The notes beneath the pieces are model-generated. The model made no database searches. It saw only the letters and a program-made list of their open reading frames with translations, and was not told where the DNA came from. The position numbers and the translations under genes were made by a program. Shown here one piece after another: positions 28,481 to 55,485 of a DNA stretch of 64,000 bases. The first letter of the stretch is position 1. Each line of letters opens with the position of its first letter. The stretch lies in NCBI RefSeq assembly GCF_058153355.1, contig NZ_CM177019.1; one strand, given 5' to 3'.

Positions 28481-28500
28481 AAAGGAAAACGTTTCCGCTT
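28481..28500 (+). promoter_or_regulatory. PurR operator upstream of pyrC
   Basis: aaaggaAAACGTTTccgctt palindromic core matching the PurR box. Confidence 0.6.
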
Positions 28501-28511
28501 ATCCTTTGTGT

Positions 28512-28538
28512 CCGGCAAAAACATCCCTTCAGCCGGAG
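28512..28538 (+). promoter_or_regulatory. pyrC leader hairpin overlapping the Shine-Dalgarno sequence
   Basis: ccggc...gccgg inverted repeat with ggag SD just before the ATG at 28550. Confidence 0.5.
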
Positions 28539-28549
28539 CATAGAGATTA

Positions 28550-48647: not shown

Positions 48648-49401
48648 GTTGTCACCCTGGACCTGGTCGTACATTTAAGAAATTAAATCATTTCAACTTG
48701 GTTGTTAACGCAACCTGTATTTTGTTAACGCCGCGTTACGATGGAAAGTATGTCTGCGGAAATATTTTTAATAACTCACCCGCGCGTTGTATTTTTCTTT
48801 TTTTGTTCATACCAAAGTATTAAAACCCACGTAAATACGCTGTTATCTACGCAAAAAAAATATTTTGTTTTCTTTCAAATTTCGGTTTTCCGCAATCAAA
48901 AATCACCAGACAGTCATTCTTCTTGCCCGTCGCTGATTGCTGCGATATGTATTGCGCACAAGCCGTGACAAACCTCGTCTTTTTGCAGTAAAAAATTGTC
49001 CACGGAGGTGTGGAGAAAAAACAAGAACGTTTTACATGACGAAAGGACTACACCGAAATATTTTTATATGCATTATTAGCAAGTTAGCACCATTTGTATG
49101 ATTTTTTAAAATTGTGCAAGAAAAACCAAATGTACAACTTTTCTATCATTTCTAAACTTAATAAAACCTTCAGATTAACATTTTAATATAACGAGTTACA
49201 TTTAGTTACATGTTTAACACTTGATTTAAGATTTGTAATGGCTAGATTGAAATCAGATGTAATCCATTAGTTTTATATTTTACCCATTTAGGGCTGATTT
49301 ATTACTACACACAGCAGTGCAACATCTGTCAGTACTTCTGGTGCTTCTATTTTAGAGGCAGCTGTCAGGTGTGCGATCAATAAAAAAAGCGGGGTTTCAT
49401 C
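48648..49401. promoter_or_regulatory. csgBAC / csgDEFG divergent intergenic control region
   Basis: 754-bp AT-rich divergent intergenic region; the many regulators acting here (RpoS, OmpR, CpxR, IHF, H-NS, sRNAs) are established knowledge, individual sites not mapped. Confidence 0.7.
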
Positions 49402-50052
<651 letters not shown>

Positions 50053-50056
50053 AGCC

Positions 50057-50446
50057 ATGAAACGTTATTTACGCTGGATTGTGGCGGCAGAATTCCTGTT
50101 CGCCGCAGGGAATCTTCACGCCGTTGAGGTAGAAGTCCCGGGCTTGTTAACTGACCATACTGTTTCATCTATTGGCCATGATTTTTACCGAGCCTTTAGT
50201 GATAAATGGGAAAGTGACTATACGGGTAACTTAACGATTAATGAAAGGCCCAGTGCACGATGGGGAAGTTGGATCACAATAACGGTCAATCAGGACGTTA
50301 TTTTCCAGACTTTTTTATTCCCGTTGAAAAGAGACTTCGAAAAAACTGTCGTCTTTGCACTGATTCAAACTGAAGAAGCACTAAATCGTCGCCAGATAAA
50401 TCAGGCGTTATTGAGTACGGGCGATTTGGCGCATGATGAATTCTAA
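50057..50446 (+). CDS. csgE: curli secretion specificity factor CsgE
   Basis: 129-aa ORF. Confidence 0.92.
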
Positions 50447-50470
50447 ATAAAAAATTGTTCGGAGGCTGCA

Positions 50471-50887
50471 ATGCGTGTCAAACATGCAGTAGTTCTACTC
50501 ATGCTTATTTCGCCTTTAAGTTGGGCTGGAACCATGACTTTCCAGTTCCGTAATCCAAACTTTGGTGGTAACCCAAATAACGGTGCTTTTTTATTAAATA
50601 GCGCCCAGGCACAAAACTCTTATAAAGATCCGAGCTATAACGATGACTTTGGTATTGAAACGCCATCAGCGTTAGATAACTTTACCCAGGCCATCCAGTC
50701 ACAAATTTTAGGTGGGCTACTGTCGAATATTAATACCGGTAAACCGGGCCGCATGGTGACCAACGATTATATTGTCGATATCGCTAACCGCGATGGTCAA
50801 TTGCAGTTGAATGTGACGGATCGCAAAACCGGACAAACCTCGACCATCCAGGTTTCGGGTTTACAAAATAACTCAACCGATTTTTAA
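50471..50887 (+). CDS. csgF: curli assembly protein CsgF
   Basis: 138-aa ORF. Confidence 0.92.
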
Positions 50888-50913
50888 GCCCCAGCTTCAT
50901 AAGGAAAATAATC

Positions 50914-51747
50914 ATGCAGCGCTTATTTCTTTTGGTTGCCGTCATGTTACTGAGCGGATGCTTAACCGCCCCGCCTAAAGAAGCCGCCAGACCGACATTA
51001 ATGCCTCGTGCTCAGAGCTACAAAGATTTGACCCATCTGCCAGCGCCGACGGGTAAGATCTTTGTTTCGGTATACAACATTCAGGACGAAACCGGGCAAT
51101 TTAAACCCTACCCGGCAAGTAACTTCTCCACTGCTGTTCCGCAAAGCGCCACGGCAATGCTGGTCACGGCATTGAAAGATTCTCGCTGGTTTATACCGCT
51201 GGAGCGCCAGGGCTTACAAAACCTGCTTAACGAGCGCAAGATTATTCGTGCGGCACAAGAAAACGGTACGGTTGCCATTAATAACCGAATCCCGCTGCAG
51301 TCTTTAACGGCGGCAAATATCATGGTTGAAGGTTCAATTATCGGTTATGAAAGCAACGTCAAATCGGGCGGGGTTGGGGCAAGATATTTTGGGATCGGTG
51401 CCGACACGCAATACCAGCTTGATCAGATTGCCGTGAACCTGCGCGTCGTCAATGTGAGTACCGGCGAGATCCTCTCCTCGGTGAACACCAGTAAGACGAT
51501 ACTTTCCTATGAAGTTCAGGCCGGGGTTTTCCGCTTTATTGACTACCAGCGCTTGCTGGAAGGGGAAGTGGGTTACACCTCGAACGAACCCGTTATGCTG
51601 TGCCTGATGTCGGCTATCGAAACAGGGGTCATTTTCCTGATTAATGATGGTATTGACCGTGGTCTGTGGGATTTGCAGAACAAAGCAGAACGGCAGAACG
51701 ACATTCTGGTGAAATACCGCCATATGTCGGTTCCACCGGAATCCTGA
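50914..51747 (+). CDS. csgG: curli secretion channel lipoprotein CsgG
   Basis: 277-aa ORF MQRLFLLVAVMLLSGC (lipobox). Confidence 0.95.
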   Translation: MQRLFLLVAVMLLSGCLTAPPKEAARPTLMPRAQSYKDLTHLPAPTGKIFVSVYNIQDETGQFKPYPASNFSTAVPQSATAMLVTALKDSRWFIPLERQGLQNLLNERKIIRAAQENGTVAINNRIPLQSLTAANIMVEGSIIGYESNVKSGGVGARYFGIGADTQYQLDQIAVNLRVVNVSTGEILSSVNTSKTILSYEVQAGVFRFIDYQRLLEGEVGYTSNEPVMLCLMSAIETGVIFLINDGIDRGLWDLQNKAERQNDILVKYRHMSVPPES

Positions 51748-51811
51748 TAGATAAAAATGCCGGAATTAATAATCCGGCATTTTACTGTTTAAGCGAAAGC
51801 GTGAGTGCCCC

Positions 51812-52303
51812 TCACGCTTTATTTTTGATTTGCTGCTCACGGTGAGCCGTCTTTGCACTACGCGCCGCCAGCCACAAGCCGCTGTTTTTCATTGCGTAAC
51901 CAAATACCAGTCCAAGCGCCAGCGAAGGTAACACCAGTTTCCAGTCACCCTGCCCGGCAAACGTCGCGCATGCGCCTATAAACGTCCCCGGAACAAATGA
52001 AAGCAGCAGCTGTTTCGCCTGAATACACATCAGAAACGCGACAATACCGGTTATGACATAACCGAGAATTTCCAGATGTGGTGCCAGTGCACTACCGTAA
52101 ATAATGACCATCGCCCACACCACGCCACTAAGCAGGGTTGCAGCGGAGATCGCCAGCCCTTTCAGCCCACCTTGCGGGCAGGCAAAGTAGGCCGTACAGC
52201 CCAGGAAGCCCGCCCAGCTTAGTAAGCCCAGGGAAACAGCCACCCATCCCCAGATACCTGAGAGAATGCCTGTTGTGATTGCAATAGAGAGAAGTATGTT
52301 CAT
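51812..52303 (-). CDS. ycdZ: inner membrane protein YcdZ (DUF1097)
   Basis: ORF 51812-52351; start placed at MNILLSIAITTGILSGIWG (163 aa). Confidence 0.85.
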   Translation of the reverse strand: MNILLSIAITTGILSGIWGWVAVSLGLLSWAGFLGCTAYFACPQGGLKGLAISAATLLSGVVWAMVIIYGSALAPHLEILGYVITGIVAFLMCIQAKQLLLSFVPGTFIGACATFAGQGDWKLVLPSLALGLVFGYAMKNSGLWLAARSAKTAHREQQIKNKA

Positions 52304-52404
52304 GCCGCGCATGATAGCAGAAAACGCGGCCATGAATGAGATCGAGCACACATTTTATGCAACAACAAATTATCTGTTGCAGTTATGAGTGATGGAGATC
52401 ACAT

Positions 52405-52959
52405 TTACTCTTCAGAATCTTCTTCCAGCTCGTCCCACATTGCACTAATAGCATCGCGGGTTAGCGGTGCCATGGTGCGCCAGAAAGGCGTAGTTGCATG
52501 GGCCTCCACTTTGCCAAGGAACGCACCACACCAGGGTAACAGATACTCACTGAACAGTGTTTCCAGTGCTTCGCTCTCATCTTCCGTTGACTGATCTTCC
52601 AGCCAGGAAGCCGCGAGCAGCAATGTACCGATGTGATCGGCTGGCGTATCCGCTAATGGCATCCCTCGTTCGGAAAGAAAAGCGCGCACTTCCGCTTCCG
52701 TCGCGCCCTCAACCCATGCGCTACGATATGGCGGCACAGCACATTCATCGCCGATAAACAACGCATTGTATTCGGCAGAGACTTGCGCCATATCACAGCT
52801 TTTCTGTAAACGTGTCAGTAACTCATCCTGCTCCAGTGGCCAGTTCGCAGCCAGTTTCCCCTCACGAATCAGGGTAAACAGCGGCACCAGTAAAGGATCT
52901 TGCGGTTGGCGGTAATAGAGCGAACCCAGCACACGACAGAGGATAGAAAACTCGTTCAT
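52405..52959 (-). CDS. ycdY: TorD-family chaperone YcdY
   Basis: 184-aa ORF MNEFSILCRVLGSLYYRQPQDPLLVPLF... Confidence 0.88.
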   Translation of the reverse strand: MNEFSILCRVLGSLYYRQPQDPLLVPLFTLIREGKLAANWPLEQDELLTRLQKSCDMAQVSAEYNALFIGDECAVPPYRSAWVEGATEAEVRAFLSERGMPLADTPADHIGTLLLAASWLEDQSTEDESEALETLFSEYLLPWCGAFLGKVEAHATTPFWRTMAPLTRDAISAMWDELEEDSEE

Positions 52960-52982
52960 TAATATATTTCCATTACTAGTAA

Positions 52983-53720
52983 TTAAAGGTCTGCAAATTC
53001 CGCAATCGGTGCCATACCGCGAGATTCAAGGAAGTTCAGTAAGCGGCGCGGAGAAACATTCAAAATGCGCTCTGGCGGAAAATCTACCGCGTCGAGGATT
53101 TTAAGACACTCTTCAAATTCACCCATGGTAAACGCGGTGTGAGAATCCGAGCCTAATGCCACCCAACCTCCAGCGTCACGTACCGCTGCGGCTACCGCAC
53201 GACAGTTGTCTTCACTGCCCTTACGTGAGTGTAAAAATGAGGAATTATTGATTTCCAGCGCCACCTGATGTTTCGCAGCTGCTTCAGCAACGGCTTTAAC
53301 ATCTATTTCATATTTCGGATTTCCGGGATGGCTTATTATATGCACATTGCCGCTGGCGATAGTGGCGATCATCGCTTGCGTATTGGTCGCTTTGTCATGC
53401 GGCGCAAACACCGGCTCATGAAAACCGGCAATAATCAGATCCAGCGAATCAAACATTTTGCCACTGCAGTCAATTTCACCGTCAACATTTTTAATGTTAG
53501 CTTCGATGCCGCGCAGGATCCCTACCCCATCAACCACTCGCGGCCAGATACGCATGTTAATGAAGTGCCAGTGATGCGGCGCATCTTCCATATCCGGGCC
53601 ATGATCGGTGATCGCAAAAAGTTTAATGCCCTTTTGTTTGGCCTGGGCAATGTAATCACTCAATGTGCTATATGCATGCGTGCTGGCAACGGTATGCATA
53701 TGAAGGTCGACGGGATACAT
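52983..53720 (-). CDS. ycdX: PHP-family zinc phosphatase YcdX
   Basis: 245-aa [21 protein letters not shown] with PHP-domain histidines. Confidence 0.9.
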
Positions 53721-53774
53721 AACTCTCTCCTGTATTCAATTCCCGCCAAGGATAGCAGGAAACCTGATGCTTTA

Positions 53775-54752
<978 letters not shown>

Positions 54753-54946
54753 TTATCGTTATGATCTACAAAGGCCACCAGCATAACAAATCCGTGGTCG
54801 GTGGCAAAAAAAGCAGATTTCGCTTATTAAAACTGCATATTGATTGAAGTTTGAATAAACGCGCGATTTTTTTAAAAAGTTTGTTGACCTCAGGTCATGA
54901 TTTCCCTAAATTAGCGCCCGTTCCAGCAAGACAGGAACGACAATTT

Positions 54947-55034
54947 GGTGAGGTGTCCGAGTGGCTGAAGGAGCACGCCTGGAAAGTGTGTATACGGCAA
55001 CGTATCGGGGGTTCGAATCCCCCCCTCACCGCCA
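54947..55034 (+). tRNA. serX: tRNA-Ser (anticodon GGA)
   Basis: 88-nt type II tRNA ggtgaggtgtccgagtggctgaagg...ggttcgaatccccccctcaccgCCA with long variable arm and encoded CCA; -35 TTGACC / -10 TAAATT upstream. Confidence 0.93.
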
Positions 55035-55480
55035 TCTTTAAAGAAGAGCTCGTACGAAAGTACGGGCTTTTTTTTTCGTATATTGCACACACCGGGGGGA
55101 TGAGAAGCCCCGACAGGGGTTCGACAACTGGCGACAGCCAGTTGGACAGACCGTGAACGCAGTGAGCGGGCTGCCCGCAGGGCGAGCGAAGCGAGTCAAT
55201 CCCCCCCTCACCGCCATCTTTAAAGAAGAGCTCGTACGAAGGTACGGGCTTTTTTTTCGTATATTGCACACACCGGGGGATGAAAAGCCCCGACCGGGGT
55301 TCGACAACTGGCGACAGCCAGTTGGACAGACCGTGAACGCAGTGAGCGGGCTGCCCGCAGGGCGAGCGAAGCGAGTCAATCCCCCCCTCACCGCCATCTT
55401 TAAAGAAGAGCTCGTACGAAGGTACGGGCTTTTTTTTCGTATATTGCACACACCGGGGATGAAAAGCCCTGACCGGGGTA
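55016..55480 (+). repeat. tandem direct repeat, ~181-bp unit x ~2.6, each unit beginning with the last 19 nt of serX
   Basis: aatccccccctcaccgcca occurs at 55016, 55198 and 55378; units near-identical apart from a few SNPs and homopolymer length; each carries a hairpin plus T-run terminator and a ggggttcga T-loop-like motif. Confidence 0.85.
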
Positions 55481-55485
55481 CTTAG

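What the first reader, a model, noticed from the sequence alone, without database searches (positions are those of the whole stretch)
55016..55480. Tandem ~181-bp repeats downstream of serX, each re-starting with the tRNA 3' end
The last 19 nt of tRNA-Ser (aatccccccctcaccgcca) recur at 55016, 55198 and 55378, a period of 180-182 bp. Each unit also contains the tRNA terminator hairpin (gctcgtac-gaaa-gtacgggc plus T run), a perfect inverted repeat caactggc-gaca-gccagttg, and a ggggttcga motif resembling the tRNA T-loop, so each unit looks like a tRNA 3' half split by a ~70-nt insert. This architecture parallels the tyrT locus, where 178-bp repeats carrying the tRNA-Tyr 3' end give rise to rtT RNA. 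It could reflect repeated site-specific recombination at a tRNA attachment site or a processed small RNA. The six-frame ORFs across it (110, 137 and 184 aa) are repeat-induced artefacts.
Basis: partly seen in the sequence, partly recalled or inferred. Interest (0 to 1): 0.72.

Follow-up and report, generated by a model that had tools for sequence, protein, structure and literature searches.

The report
RtT-type tRNA-linked repeats after serX
The ~181-bp tandem repeats after the serine tRNA gene serX are real. They are the serine-tRNA version of the known "RtT" repeat family first described at the tyrosine tRNA locus tyrT, so this is an ordinary, already annotated feature and not a strain-specific recombination scar.

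Summary
**Observation confirmed.** Window 55016-55479 holds 2.6 tandem copies of a 180-182-bp unit. Each copy starts with the last 19 nt of tRNA-Ser(GGA), which lies at 54947-55034.

**What it is.** The units are homologous to the tyrT rtT repeats, not just similar in layout.
- They match Rfam RtT (RF00391) at 41.7 and 39.9 bits, E about 1e-5, just under the 45-bit gathering score.
- The same array in K-12 scores 46.3 bits and RefSeq annotates it as "RtT sRNA".

**Distribution.** A scan of species-representative genomes found the RtT core motif only 60-70 nt, plus multiples of about 180 nt, downstream of tRNA-Ser(GGA) or tRNA-Tyr(GUA). All genuine hits were in Enterobacterales.

**Unit anatomy.** Each Ser-linked unit has three parts:
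- the tRNA 3' end;
- a strong intrinsic terminator;
- a structured RNA core, with 20 of 49 predicted pairs showing compensatory changes.

**Variation.** A sample of the 5,426 complete E. coli genomes shows 0 to 5 complete units, and K-12 sublines carry 3 or 4. Units within one array are more alike than units between species.

**Genomic islands.** serX islands join only at the genuine tRNA end, never at an internal copy of the repeated segment.

**Verdict.** This is a known family with an unknown RNA function. The site-specific recombination scar reading is not supported, and the ORFs across the array are artefacts.

The parts
54884..54912 (+). Promoter-like site upstream of serX (TTGACC, 17 nt, TAAATT)
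   Evidence: Consensus scan. It lies about 35 nt upstream of the tRNA start. A consensus match only; function is inferred.
54947..55034 (+). tRNA-Ser(GGA) gene, serX
   Evidence: ARAGORN; Rfam tRNA 53.8 bits; annotated tRNA-Ser next to ghrA in matching genomes.
55016..55034 (+). Copy 1 of the repeated 19-nt segment, which is the true tRNA 3' end. Its last 14 nt (55021-55034) are the attachment core used by serX genomic islands.
   Evidence: Exact 19-mer. Island right junctions in L006/L007 read ...caggcggt|CCCCCTCACCGCCA. The SRL island at serX is flanked by 14-bp direct repeats (PMC7545054).
55040..55077 (+). Intrinsic terminator 1 (hairpin plus a run of 9 U)
   Evidence: Fold dG -20.4 kcal/mol, z -5.8. 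The hairpin is kept by compensatory changes across 31 Ser-linked units: helix 2 has 6 of 7 pairs with changes on both sides.
55080..55216 (+). RtT-like unit 1: structured core ending in copy 2 of the tRNA 3' end (55198-55216)
   Evidence: Rfam RF00391 RtT, 41.7 bits, E 4.3e-6, full model 1-130. The fold is a multi-hairpin junction closed by GGGGGGAU/AUCCCCCC.
55222..55257 (+). Intrinsic terminator 2
   Evidence: Fold dG -20.5 kcal/mol, z -6.5, run of 8 U.
55259..55396 (+). RtT-like unit 2: structured core ending in copy 3 of the tRNA 3' end (55378-55396)
   Evidence: Rfam RF00391 RtT, 39.9 bits, E 1.2e-5, full model 1-130.
55402..55437 (+). Intrinsic terminator 3. It is also the first hairpin met by transcription from the convergent DUF2726 gene.
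   Evidence: Fold dG -20.5 on the + strand and -9.0 on the - strand. Terminator-like sites on the - strand at the three hairpins.
55439..55479 (+). Truncated third RtT core. The array ends after ...GACCGGGGT.
   Evidence: Sequence; unit comparison. The same end type, 83 nt into a unit with a DUF2726 flank, recurs in other E. coli; K-12 ends 61 nt into a unit.

Best explanation
This is the serX member of the RtT family of tRNA-linked tandem repeats (Rfam RF00391; the archetype is the 178-bp tyrT repeats that yield rtT/RttR RNA). It belongs to a divergent, serine-tRNA-linked subfamily.

**Unit design.** Each 180-182-bp unit is a module of four parts:
- the last 19 nt of tRNA-Ser, including CCA;
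- an A/U-rich stretch and a strong intrinsic terminator;
- a short spacer;
- a ~100-nt structured core, whose closing helix pairs an upstream G-run with the C-run of the next tRNA-3'-end copy.

**Shown here.**
- Homology to RtT.
- Conservation of the design after tRNA-Ser(GGA) across Enterobacteriaceae.
- Compensatory base changes that keep the hairpins.
- Bases in the core that match the T-stem of the cognate tRNA: GGGG/CCCC in Ser units, AAGG/CCTT in Tyr units.
- Variable copy number, with units in one array evolving together.

**Inferred.**
- At the DNA level the array grows and shrinks by unequal homologous exchange or replication slippage between units.
- At the RNA level most serX transcripts stop at terminator 1.
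- Read-through transcripts fold into the RtT structure. The tRNA 3'-maturation enzymes then trim them to the CCA of the next pseudo-3'-end, releasing an RtT-like RNA as at tyrT.
- The serial two-way terminators also shield the convergent downstream gene.

The cellular role of the released RNA is unknown, for this array as for rtT itself.
For: **Homology to RtT.**
- Rfam RtT matches over the full model at E 4e-6 and 1e-5.
- Comparison scores: K-12 serX units 46.3 bits, serW units 41.6-48.6, tyrT units 133-137.
- RefSeq annotates 'RtT sRNA' in this array in many E. coli genomes.

**Linkage to two tRNAs.**
- The scan pattern left the T-stem-matching bases free.
- Every enterobacterial hit with an upstream tRNA in the fetched locus (one Enterobacter locus, L088, aside) lies 60-70 nt, or that plus multiples of about 180, after tRNA-Ser(GGA) or tRNA-Tyr(GUA).
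- Arrays hold 0-4 complete Ser-linked units and 0-7 Tyr-linked units.

**Structure.**
- 96.7% of cells form standard pairs.
- 20 pairs have changes on both sides, against 9.9 +/- 1.6 in shuffles (0 of 500 reach 20) and 3-7 when partners are slid.
- Comparing Ser and Tyr units, the closing helix and hairpin 1 switch G-C to A-U at two positions each.
- The core motif is xCCC..CGGG in nearly all Ser units and, in most Tyr units, xCTT..xAAG.

**Terminators.** dG -20.4/-20.5 kcal/mol with a run of 8-9 U.

**Array dynamics.**
- 0-5 complete units in E. coli, and 3 or 4 in K-12 records.
- Within-array identity is 0.95, against 0.83 between species.

**Precedent.** rtT RNA is released by processing of the tyrT transcript (Bosl and Kersten 1991, as cited in PMC3318445 and PMC4986893).
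Against: - No expression data for the serX array were available.
- A strong terminator precedes every RtT core, and no promoter-like site was found inside the units. Any RtT-like RNA from serX may therefore be scarce.
- The window's two units fall below the Rfam gathering score (41.7 and 39.9 against 45).
- Many E. coli strains keep only a partial unit (spans of 396-437 bp), so the array is dispensable in the species.
- The compensatory changes in the closing helix between Ser and Tyr types amount to a single evolutionary event. They are also confounded with copying of the tRNA sequence.
- The scan pattern required a fixed core motif, so 'only Ser(GGA) and Tyr' holds only for that pattern. Rfam-based work reports RtT hits near Asn and Lys tRNAs in Pasteurellaceae (PMC4986893).
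Confidence: 0.78

Rival explanations
1. The array is a scar of repeated site-specific recombination. Successive integrations and excisions of integrase-bearing elements at the tRNA 3' end left duplicated attachment sites, or the repeated cores serve as spare attachment sites.
For: - The last 14 nt of every repeated segment equal the direct repeat that flanks serX islands. The right junction in L006/L007 is ...caggcggt|CCCCCTCACCGCCA, with a tyrosine integrase gene 160 bp away. The SRL island has 14-bp repeats and integrase-dependent excision (PMC7545054).
- serX is a known island hotspot (PMC7545054), and the flank to the right of the array differs between strains.
Against: - The unit is 181 bp and includes a conserved structured core and a terminator, not just an att core.
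- The same design follows tRNA-Ser(GGA) and tRNA-Tyr in many genera, without an integrase gene between units in the loci whose annotation was read.
- A chimeric query (RtT core + att core + island left end) found no genome among 5,426 with 80% or more coverage. Every match starts at the 19 nt of the genuine tRNA.
- The unit has no match in 50,697 phage records. The 'plasmid' matches are mostly very large records predicted non-mobilizable, apparently chromosomal DNA filed as plasmid.
- Copy number differs among K-12 records; no serX-type integrase gene was looked for in K-12.
Confidence: 0.05
2. The array is neutral repetitive DNA. An old tandem duplication of the serX 3' end and trailer drifts in copy number, with no RNA or DNA function beyond the first terminator.
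For: - Copy number runs from 0 to 5 complete units among E. coli, and many lineages keep only a partial unit.
- An IS3 insertion and deletions are tolerated.
- A terminator precedes each core and no internal promoter was found.
- Concerted evolution is what unequal exchange alone would produce.
Against: - Hairpins outside the terminator keep pairing through changes on both sides: helices 8 and 9/10 have 6 of 8 and 6 of 8 pairs with such changes.
- The core motif and overall design persist across Enterobacteriaceae genera and at two different tRNA types, with bases that track the cognate tRNA.
Confidence: 0.12
3. The array mainly acts as a stack of two-way terminators that separates the strong tRNA promoter from the convergent downstream gene. 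The RtT cores are spacers.
For: - Three identical strong hairpins, each followed by a U run, on the + strand.
- Terminator-like sites on the - strand at the same hairpins.
- The DUF2726 gene ends 7 nt beyond the array and converges on it.
- The terminator hairpin is conserved with compensatory changes.
Against: - tyrT-type units have no intrinsic terminator yet keep the same core, so the core is not explained.
- The - strand hairpin is weak (-9 kcal/mol).
- One terminator suffices in the many strains that have no complete unit.
Confidence: 0.1
4. The long ORFs across the array (110, 137 and 184 aa) encode proteins.
For: The ORFs exist. A few RefSeq records carry a 'hypothetical protein' under related arrays (rows H56 and H57).
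Against: - One ORF overlaps the tRNA gene.
- Unit lengths of 180-182 bp, and 173-185 bp in other species, do not preserve a reading frame.
- K-12 has a different ORF set.
- No PADLOC family hit for any of the three; they were not searched against NCBIfam.
- RefSeq annotates no CDS there in a strain 98.8% identical over the queried 1.1 kb (window 54700-55800).
- The substitution pattern is RNA-like, with paired changes.
Confidence: 0.01

Closest known systems
RtT RNA (Rfam RF00391; rttR/rtT of the E. coli tyrT-tyrV operon, 178-bp repeats x 3.1)
   Same: - Tandem units directly after a tRNA gene, each ending in the last ~19 nt of that tRNA including CCA.
- Shared core motif GATGAGAA..CGAC..GTTCGA and shared ...CCCGnAGGGCGA... 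segment.
- A closing helix between an upstream purine run and the tRNA-derived C-rich 3' strand.
- Significant full-length covariance-model match.

   Different: - Scores are near the family threshold (40-48 bits, against 133-137 for tyrT units).
- The T-stem-like bases are GGGG/CCCC instead of AAGG/CCTT.
- The internal hairpins differ in sequence and length.
- Every Ser-linked unit starts with an intrinsic terminator. tyrT units lack one; from my own knowledge, tyrT termination is Rho-dependent.
- No experimental RNA has been reported for the serX array.
The serW array (the other tRNA-Ser(GGA) gene, between infA and clpA)
   Same: Identical tRNA and the same unit design: ~179-bp units, 3 complete copies plus a partial copy in strain 98224, about 92% identical to the serX units, annotated RtT sRNA.
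   Different: A different chromosomal locus and flanks. The array there ends after a terminator and abuts CRISPR-repeat-like sequence.
attB/attL/attR direct repeats of tRNA-integrating genomic islands (SRL island, O-islands 43/48, PAI-CFT073-serX)
   Same: The 14-nt 3' end of serX is the island direct repeat, and each unit carries a copy of it (PMC7545054; PMC3064760 for islands at serW and serX).
   Different: - Island repeats are 14 bp and flank tens of kilobases that include an integrase gene.
- Here the repeats are 181-bp head-to-tail units with no mobile DNA between them.
- Internal copies are not used by the island tested.
tRNA 3' external transcribed spacers that act as small-RNA sponges (3'ETS-leuZ; from my own knowledge, Lalaouna et al. 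2015)
   Same: A stable RNA derived from the 3' trailer of a tRNA transcript. This is a possible model for a function.
   Different: No pairing partner, Hfq binding or expression was tested here. 3'ETS-leuZ is not a tandem repeat and does not end in a tRNA 3' end.

Membership tests
Rfam RF00391 RtT RNA | Match to the family covariance model at or above the curated gathering score (45 bits) | tested here: not met
   The window units score 41.7 and 39.9 bits. The matches are nonetheless full-length (model 1-130) with E 4e-6 and 1e-5. The orthologous K-12 units reach 46.3 bits and are annotated RtT by RefSeq.
Rfam RF00391 RtT RNA | Position directly downstream of a tRNA gene, in tandem units that each end with the 3'-terminal ~19 nt of that tRNA including CCA | tested here: met
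   The same layout is seen at tyrT in K-12.
Rfam RF00391 RtT RNA | Shared core sequence and closing helix between an upstream purine run and the tRNA-derived 3' strand | tested here: met
   - The core motif is found only after tRNA-Ser(GGA) or tRNA-Tyr.
- Ser and Tyr cores align.
- The closing helix and hairpin 1 keep pairing through G-C to A-U switches.
- Hairpins within Ser units are supported by changes on both sides.
Rfam RF00391 RtT RNA | RNA released from the tRNA operon transcript by processing | not testable with these tools
   No transcript data are available. No paper in the library mentions RtT together with serX.
Attachment-site scars of tRNA-integrating elements | Direct repeats limited to the att core and flanking mobile DNA that carries an integrase gene | tested here: not met
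   The units are 180-182 bp and lie head to tail with nothing between them. No integrase gene lies in or next to the array in the window.
Attachment-site scars of tRNA-integrating elements | Internal repeated cores used as integration sites | tested here: not met
   The chimeric junction query gave 0 of 5,426 genomes with 80% or more coverage; all matches begin at the genuine tRNA 3' end. Only one island left end (the O157 type) was tested.
Intrinsic (Rho-independent) terminator | G+C-rich hairpin directly followed by a U run, conserved by compensatory change | tested here: met
   dG -20.4/-20.5 kcal/mol, run of 8-9 U. Helix 2 has 6 of 7 pairs with changes on both sides. Termination efficiency was not measured.
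tRNA gene or tRNA pseudogene | Cloverleaf recognised by a tRNA finder | tested here: not met
   ARAGORN finds only serX in 50000-60000. The Rfam tRNA model matches only 54947-55031.

The most novel reading that the evidence does not exclude
RtT units are not passive by-products. They are mimics of their cognate tRNA kept by selection. Three or four segments of each unit track the T-stem and 3' end of the tRNA they follow: GGGG/CCCC with G73-CCA after tRNA-Ser(GGA), and AAGG/CCTT with A73-CCA after tRNA-Tyr. The released RNA could then act as a tRNA-specific decoy or sensor, for example for 3'-end maturation enzymes or for the ribosome/RelA response to uncharged tRNA. On this reading the Ser-linked subfamily arose by retargeting an older Tyr-linked element. 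Tyr-linked units reach Sodalis, Xenorhabdus and Edaphovirga, whereas Ser-linked units were seen only in Enterobacteriaceae.
Probability: 0.12. Interest if true: 0.6.

Novelty: already known. Interest (0 to 1): 0.28.

Why it matters
As found, it matters little. It is a correctly spotted but already catalogued repeat family, and annotation pipelines label the same array in K-12.

Three modest points have some value:
- **Annotation.** The Ser-linked units straddle the Rfam gathering score, so identical arrays are annotated in some genomes and missed in others, including this window.
- **Assembly and typing.** The array varies from 0 to 5 complete units, and between K-12 records. It can collapse in assemblies and could serve as a typing marker.
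- **The open question of what rtT RNA does.** This has stood for 35 years. There are now two diverged subfamilies with compensatory evolution and tRNA-matched bases, which argues that the structure is under selection and provides natural variants for experiments.

Tried and rejected
- **Literature.**
  - RtT together with serX: no paper.
  - 'rttR' alone: noise from unrelated fields.
  - 'rtT RNA'/tyrT: nothing new on function.
  - The original Bosl and Kersten paper is not held.
- **Mobile-element origin.** The unit has no match in phage records. The plasmid-collection matches are mostly very large records predicted non-mobilizable, which look like chromosomal DNA filed as plasmid.
- **Spare attachment sites.** The chimeric junction query found no island at an internal core.
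- **Coding.** The three ORFs have no PADLOC hit; the DUF2726 protein has no NCBIfam or PADLOC hit.
- **Internal promoter.** None was found in the units. A conserved (C/T)ATATT stretch upstream of the G-run in both subfamilies was noticed by eye but has no matching -35.
- **Other Rfam matches in the region.** sX4 and Thr_leader score far below their gathering scores. They reflect the tRNA and the terminator hairpins respectively.
- **Copy-number census.** The synthetic 8-unit query gives array lengths from record spans for 39 of 60 rank-spread rows. It is not an unbiased distribution over all genomes.

Full report
**1.
- ARAGORN finds one tRNA in 50-60 kb: tRNA-Ser(GGA) at 54947-55034 on the + strand.
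- Tandem Repeats Finder reports 55016-55479 as 2.6 copies of a 180-bp unit, 97% matches, score 875.
- The 19-mer AATCCCCCCCTCACCGCCA, the tRNA 3' end, occurs at 55016, 55198 and 55378 and nowhere else in 64 kb. None is expected by chance, even with two mismatches allowed.
- The units are 182 and 180 bp. The third copy is cut off after ...GACCGGGGT at 55479.
One detail differs: the terminator loop is GAAA only in copy 1 and GAAG in copies 2 and 3.

**2. Genomic context.**
- The locus is ghrA (- strand), serX (+), the array, then a convergent gene for a DUF2726-domain protein (55486-56172, -), then phoH and efeB/efeO.
- K-12 has ycdU, ymdE, IS3 and dgcT directly to the right of the array. Other strains have dgcT followed by pgaA there.
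- The window contains no DNA similar to ycdU, dgcT or pgaA.
- The window's arrangement, with 80% or more of 54700-55800 covered, occurs in 480 of 5,426 complete E. coli genomes.

**3. The units are RtT elements.**
- A permissive Rfam search matches RF00391 (RtT RNA) over the whole model at 55080-55216 (41.7 bits, E 4.3e-6) and 55259-55396 (39.9 bits, E 1.2e-5). The gathering score is 45.
- Scored the same way, the tyrT-tyrV units of K-12 reach 133-137 bits, the K-12-type serX units 46.3, and the serW units 41.6-48.6.
- RefSeq therefore annotates 'RtT sRNA' one to five times in this array in many E. coli genomes. It annotates nothing in a strain 98.8% identical to the window over the queried 1.1 kb.
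- The tyrT locus itself has 3.1 copies of a 178-bp unit, and the annotated rttR RNA lies in the first of them.

**4. Distribution.**
- I scanned one genome per bacterial and archaeal species for GATGAGAANNNNCGACNNNNGTTCGA. This pattern leaves the T-stem-like bases free.
Nearly all are from Enterobacterales, plus a few evident chance hits in unrelated phyla.
- With one exception (L088, Enterobacter sp. EA-1), every enterobacterial hit that has an upstream tRNA in the fetched locus lies 60-70 nt after tRNA-Ser(GGA) or tRNA-Tyr(GUA), or that distance plus multiples of about 180 nt. No other identified tRNA type appears.
- Arrays hold 0-4 complete units of mostly 173-185 nt after tRNA-Ser(GGA), and 0-7 complete units of 167-180 nt after tRNA-Tyr.
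- Ser-linked arrays were seen in Escherichia, Citrobacter, Enterobacter, Klebsiella, Salmonella, Kosakonia, Pluralibacter, Franconibacter, Atlantibacter and other Enterobacteriaceae.
- Tyr-linked arrays also occur in Sodalis, Xenorhabdus, Edaphovirga and Acerihabitans.
- The fixed motif limits this statement. Rfam-based work reports RtT hits near Asn and Lys tRNA genes in Pasteurellaceae (PMC4986893).

**5. Anatomy and structure.**
- Each Ser-linked unit reads, in order: tRNA 3' end, an A/U-rich stretch, an intrinsic terminator (dG -20.4/-20.5 kcal/mol, run of 8-9 U), a short spacer, and a ~100-nt core.
- A single unit folds well below shuffled controls (z -5.3). It forms a junction closed by GGGGGGAU/AUCCCCCC, with three internal hairpins and a free 3' tail CUCACCGCCA.
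- On an alignment of 31 diverse Ser-linked units (A1), the consensus structure has 49 pairs.
  - 96.7% of cells form standard pairs.
  - 20 pairs show changes on both sides, against 9.9 +/- 1.6 in shuffles (0 of 500 reach 20) and 3-7 when partners are slid by 1-3 columns.
  - The support lies in the terminator hairpin and in two core hairpins. The closing helix does not vary within the subfamily.
- Between subfamilies (A2), the closing helix and the first hairpin each switch G-C to A-U at two positions.
- The core motif is xCCC...CGGG in nearly all Ser-linked units (about 60 of 64) and, in most Tyr-linked units (about 94 of 112), xCTT...xAAG. These bases equal the T-stem of the cognate tRNA.
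- A second pairing register, with two T-arm-like elements, fits the same covariation and cannot be excluded.

**6. Dynamics.**
- I made a synthetic query of the ghrA-side flank, the tRNA and eight consensus units, and read array length from the span matched in each record.
- Among rank-spread rows that include the ghrA flank, the number of complete units after serX was:

| Complete units | Rows |
|---|---|
| 0 | 14 |
| 1 | 10 |
| 2 | 8 |
| 3 | 3 |
| 4 | 2 |
| 5 | 1 |

- One further ghrA-flank row (H45) has unit 1 cut short by an IS3 insertion.
- The sample is not unbiased, so it gives a range and not frequencies.
- NC_000913 has 3 units. Other K-12 records (g62, CP010443, EC600) have 4. This is either real instability or assembly collapse.
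- Three right-end types recur. Arrays end 61 nt (ycdU flank), 83 nt (DUF2726 flank, as in the window) or 102 nt (dgcT flank) into a unit. An IS3 insertion into unit 1 also occurs.
- Units within one array are more alike than units of different species: median identity 0.95 against 0.83 for Ser-linked, and 0.97 against 0.79 for Tyr-linked.
- This is the pattern expected from unequal exchange or gene conversion between units.

**7. Relation to genomic islands.**
- serX is a known island site. The SRL island is flanked by 14-bp direct repeats and excises by its integrase (PMC7545054).
- In two genomes the island's right junction reads ...caggcggt|CCCCCTCACCGCCA and is followed by the array, with a tyrosine integrase gene 160 bp to the left.
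- In O157:H7 the match to the window stops exactly at the tRNA CCA, and island genes follow.
- Each unit therefore carries a copy of the 14-nt core.
- A chimeric query joined the end of an RtT core, the core and 150 nt of the O157 island's left end.
  - It found no genome among 5,426 with 80% or more coverage.
  - The listed matches all begin at the 19 nt shared with the genuine tRNA and lie under an annotated tRNA-Ser.
- The unit has no match in phage records.
- The array is thus a neighbour of the attachment site. It is not a product of it.

**8. Most likely mechanism.**
- Shown: identity as an RtT-family array, its modular design, selection on structure, and copy-number change with concerted evolution.
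- Inferred by homology with tyrT:
  - Transcription starts at the serX promoter (a promoter-like site at 54884-54912) and mostly ends at terminator 1.
  - Read-through RNA folds into the RtT structure.
  - It is trimmed to the CCA of the next pseudo-3'-end by the enzymes that mature tRNA 3' ends. From established knowledge, RNase E cuts in A/U-rich trailers and RNase T stalls at CC.
- The stacked two-way hairpins may also shield the convergent gene.
- The function of the RNA is unknown, as it is for rtT, which has only been proposed to modulate the stringent response (cited in PMC4986893 and in 10.1101/2024.07.17.603846).

**9. ORFs.**
- The 110-, 137- and 184-aa ORFs are by-products of the repeat.
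- One overlaps the tRNA gene, and unit lengths do not preserve a frame.
- K-12 has a different set (three overlapping 137-aa ORFs).
- None has a PADLOC family hit.

**10. Verdict.** The recombination-scar reading is not supported. The feature is already catalogued and is of low to moderate interest. The residual interest lies in the unexplained matching between RtT cores and their cognate tRNAs.

Noticed in passing
window 55486-57700: Between the serX array and phoH this strain has only a gene for a DUF2726-domain protein (55486-56172, - strand). K-12 has ycdU, ymdE, IS3 and dgcT immediately beyond the array; other strains have dgcT followed by pgaA. No DNA similar to ycdU, dgcT or pgaA is in the window, so the strain may lack this block, including the start of the PGA biofilm locus. 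The DUF2726 protein has no NCBIfam or PADLOC hit.
   Followed up: partly
window 56766-56959 (+): Strong Rfam match to Ysr251 (Yersinia antisense sRNA), 182.9 bits against a gathering score of 100, on the strand opposite the 3' part of phoH. The same match appears in locus L006 (189 bits). It may simply reflect conservation of the phoH coding sequence.
   Followed up: no
window 58102-58179 (-), 49255-49346 (+), 4420-4588 (-), 6449-6785 (+), 28500-28549 (+): Other Rfam matches above their gathering scores: naRNA4 (a REP-derived RNA between phoH and efeB), ES056 sRNA, SraB, the rne 5' UTR element and the pyrC leader. All are as expected for this E. coli chromosome region.
   Followed up: no
L001 (NC_000913) versus L004 (K-12-like strain g62) and hits H47, H51, H76: K-12 records differ in the number of complete units after serX: 3 in NC_000913 and CETR1G40, 4 in g62, CP010443 and EC600. 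This is either real instability on a laboratory time scale or collapse of the repeat in some assemblies.
   Followed up: partly
L005 4080-4770 (E. coli strain 98224, serW locus): The paralogous serW gene carries its own array of ~179-bp RtT-like units. Just beyond it lie two copies of a sequence matching the CRISPR-DR4 repeat model (40 bits, gathering score 35), then an IS200 element.
   Followed up: no
L011, L020, L024, L034, L037, L076, L087, L089, L104, L114: In many Enterobacteriaceae two tRNA-Ser(GGA) genes lie 1-6 kb apart on the same strand (often about 3 kb), several of them with their own RtT-like unit or units. In Kosakonia (L011) three units fill most of the ~0.9-kb gap between the two genes, like the tyrT-unit-tyrV layout.
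   Followed up: no
window 55077-55094 and equivalents; Tyr-linked units: A short (C/T)ATATT stretch 12-16 nt upstream of the G-run is shared by Ser-linked and Tyr-linked units. It looks like a -10 element, but there is no matching -35 and the promoter scan found nothing.
   Followed up: partly
L073, L074, L113, L114 (Enterobacter sp. JUb54, Raoultella, Franconibacter): Some Ser-linked units are 257-259 nt instead of about 182 nt, which suggests an insertion of about 76 nt inside a unit.
   Followed up: no
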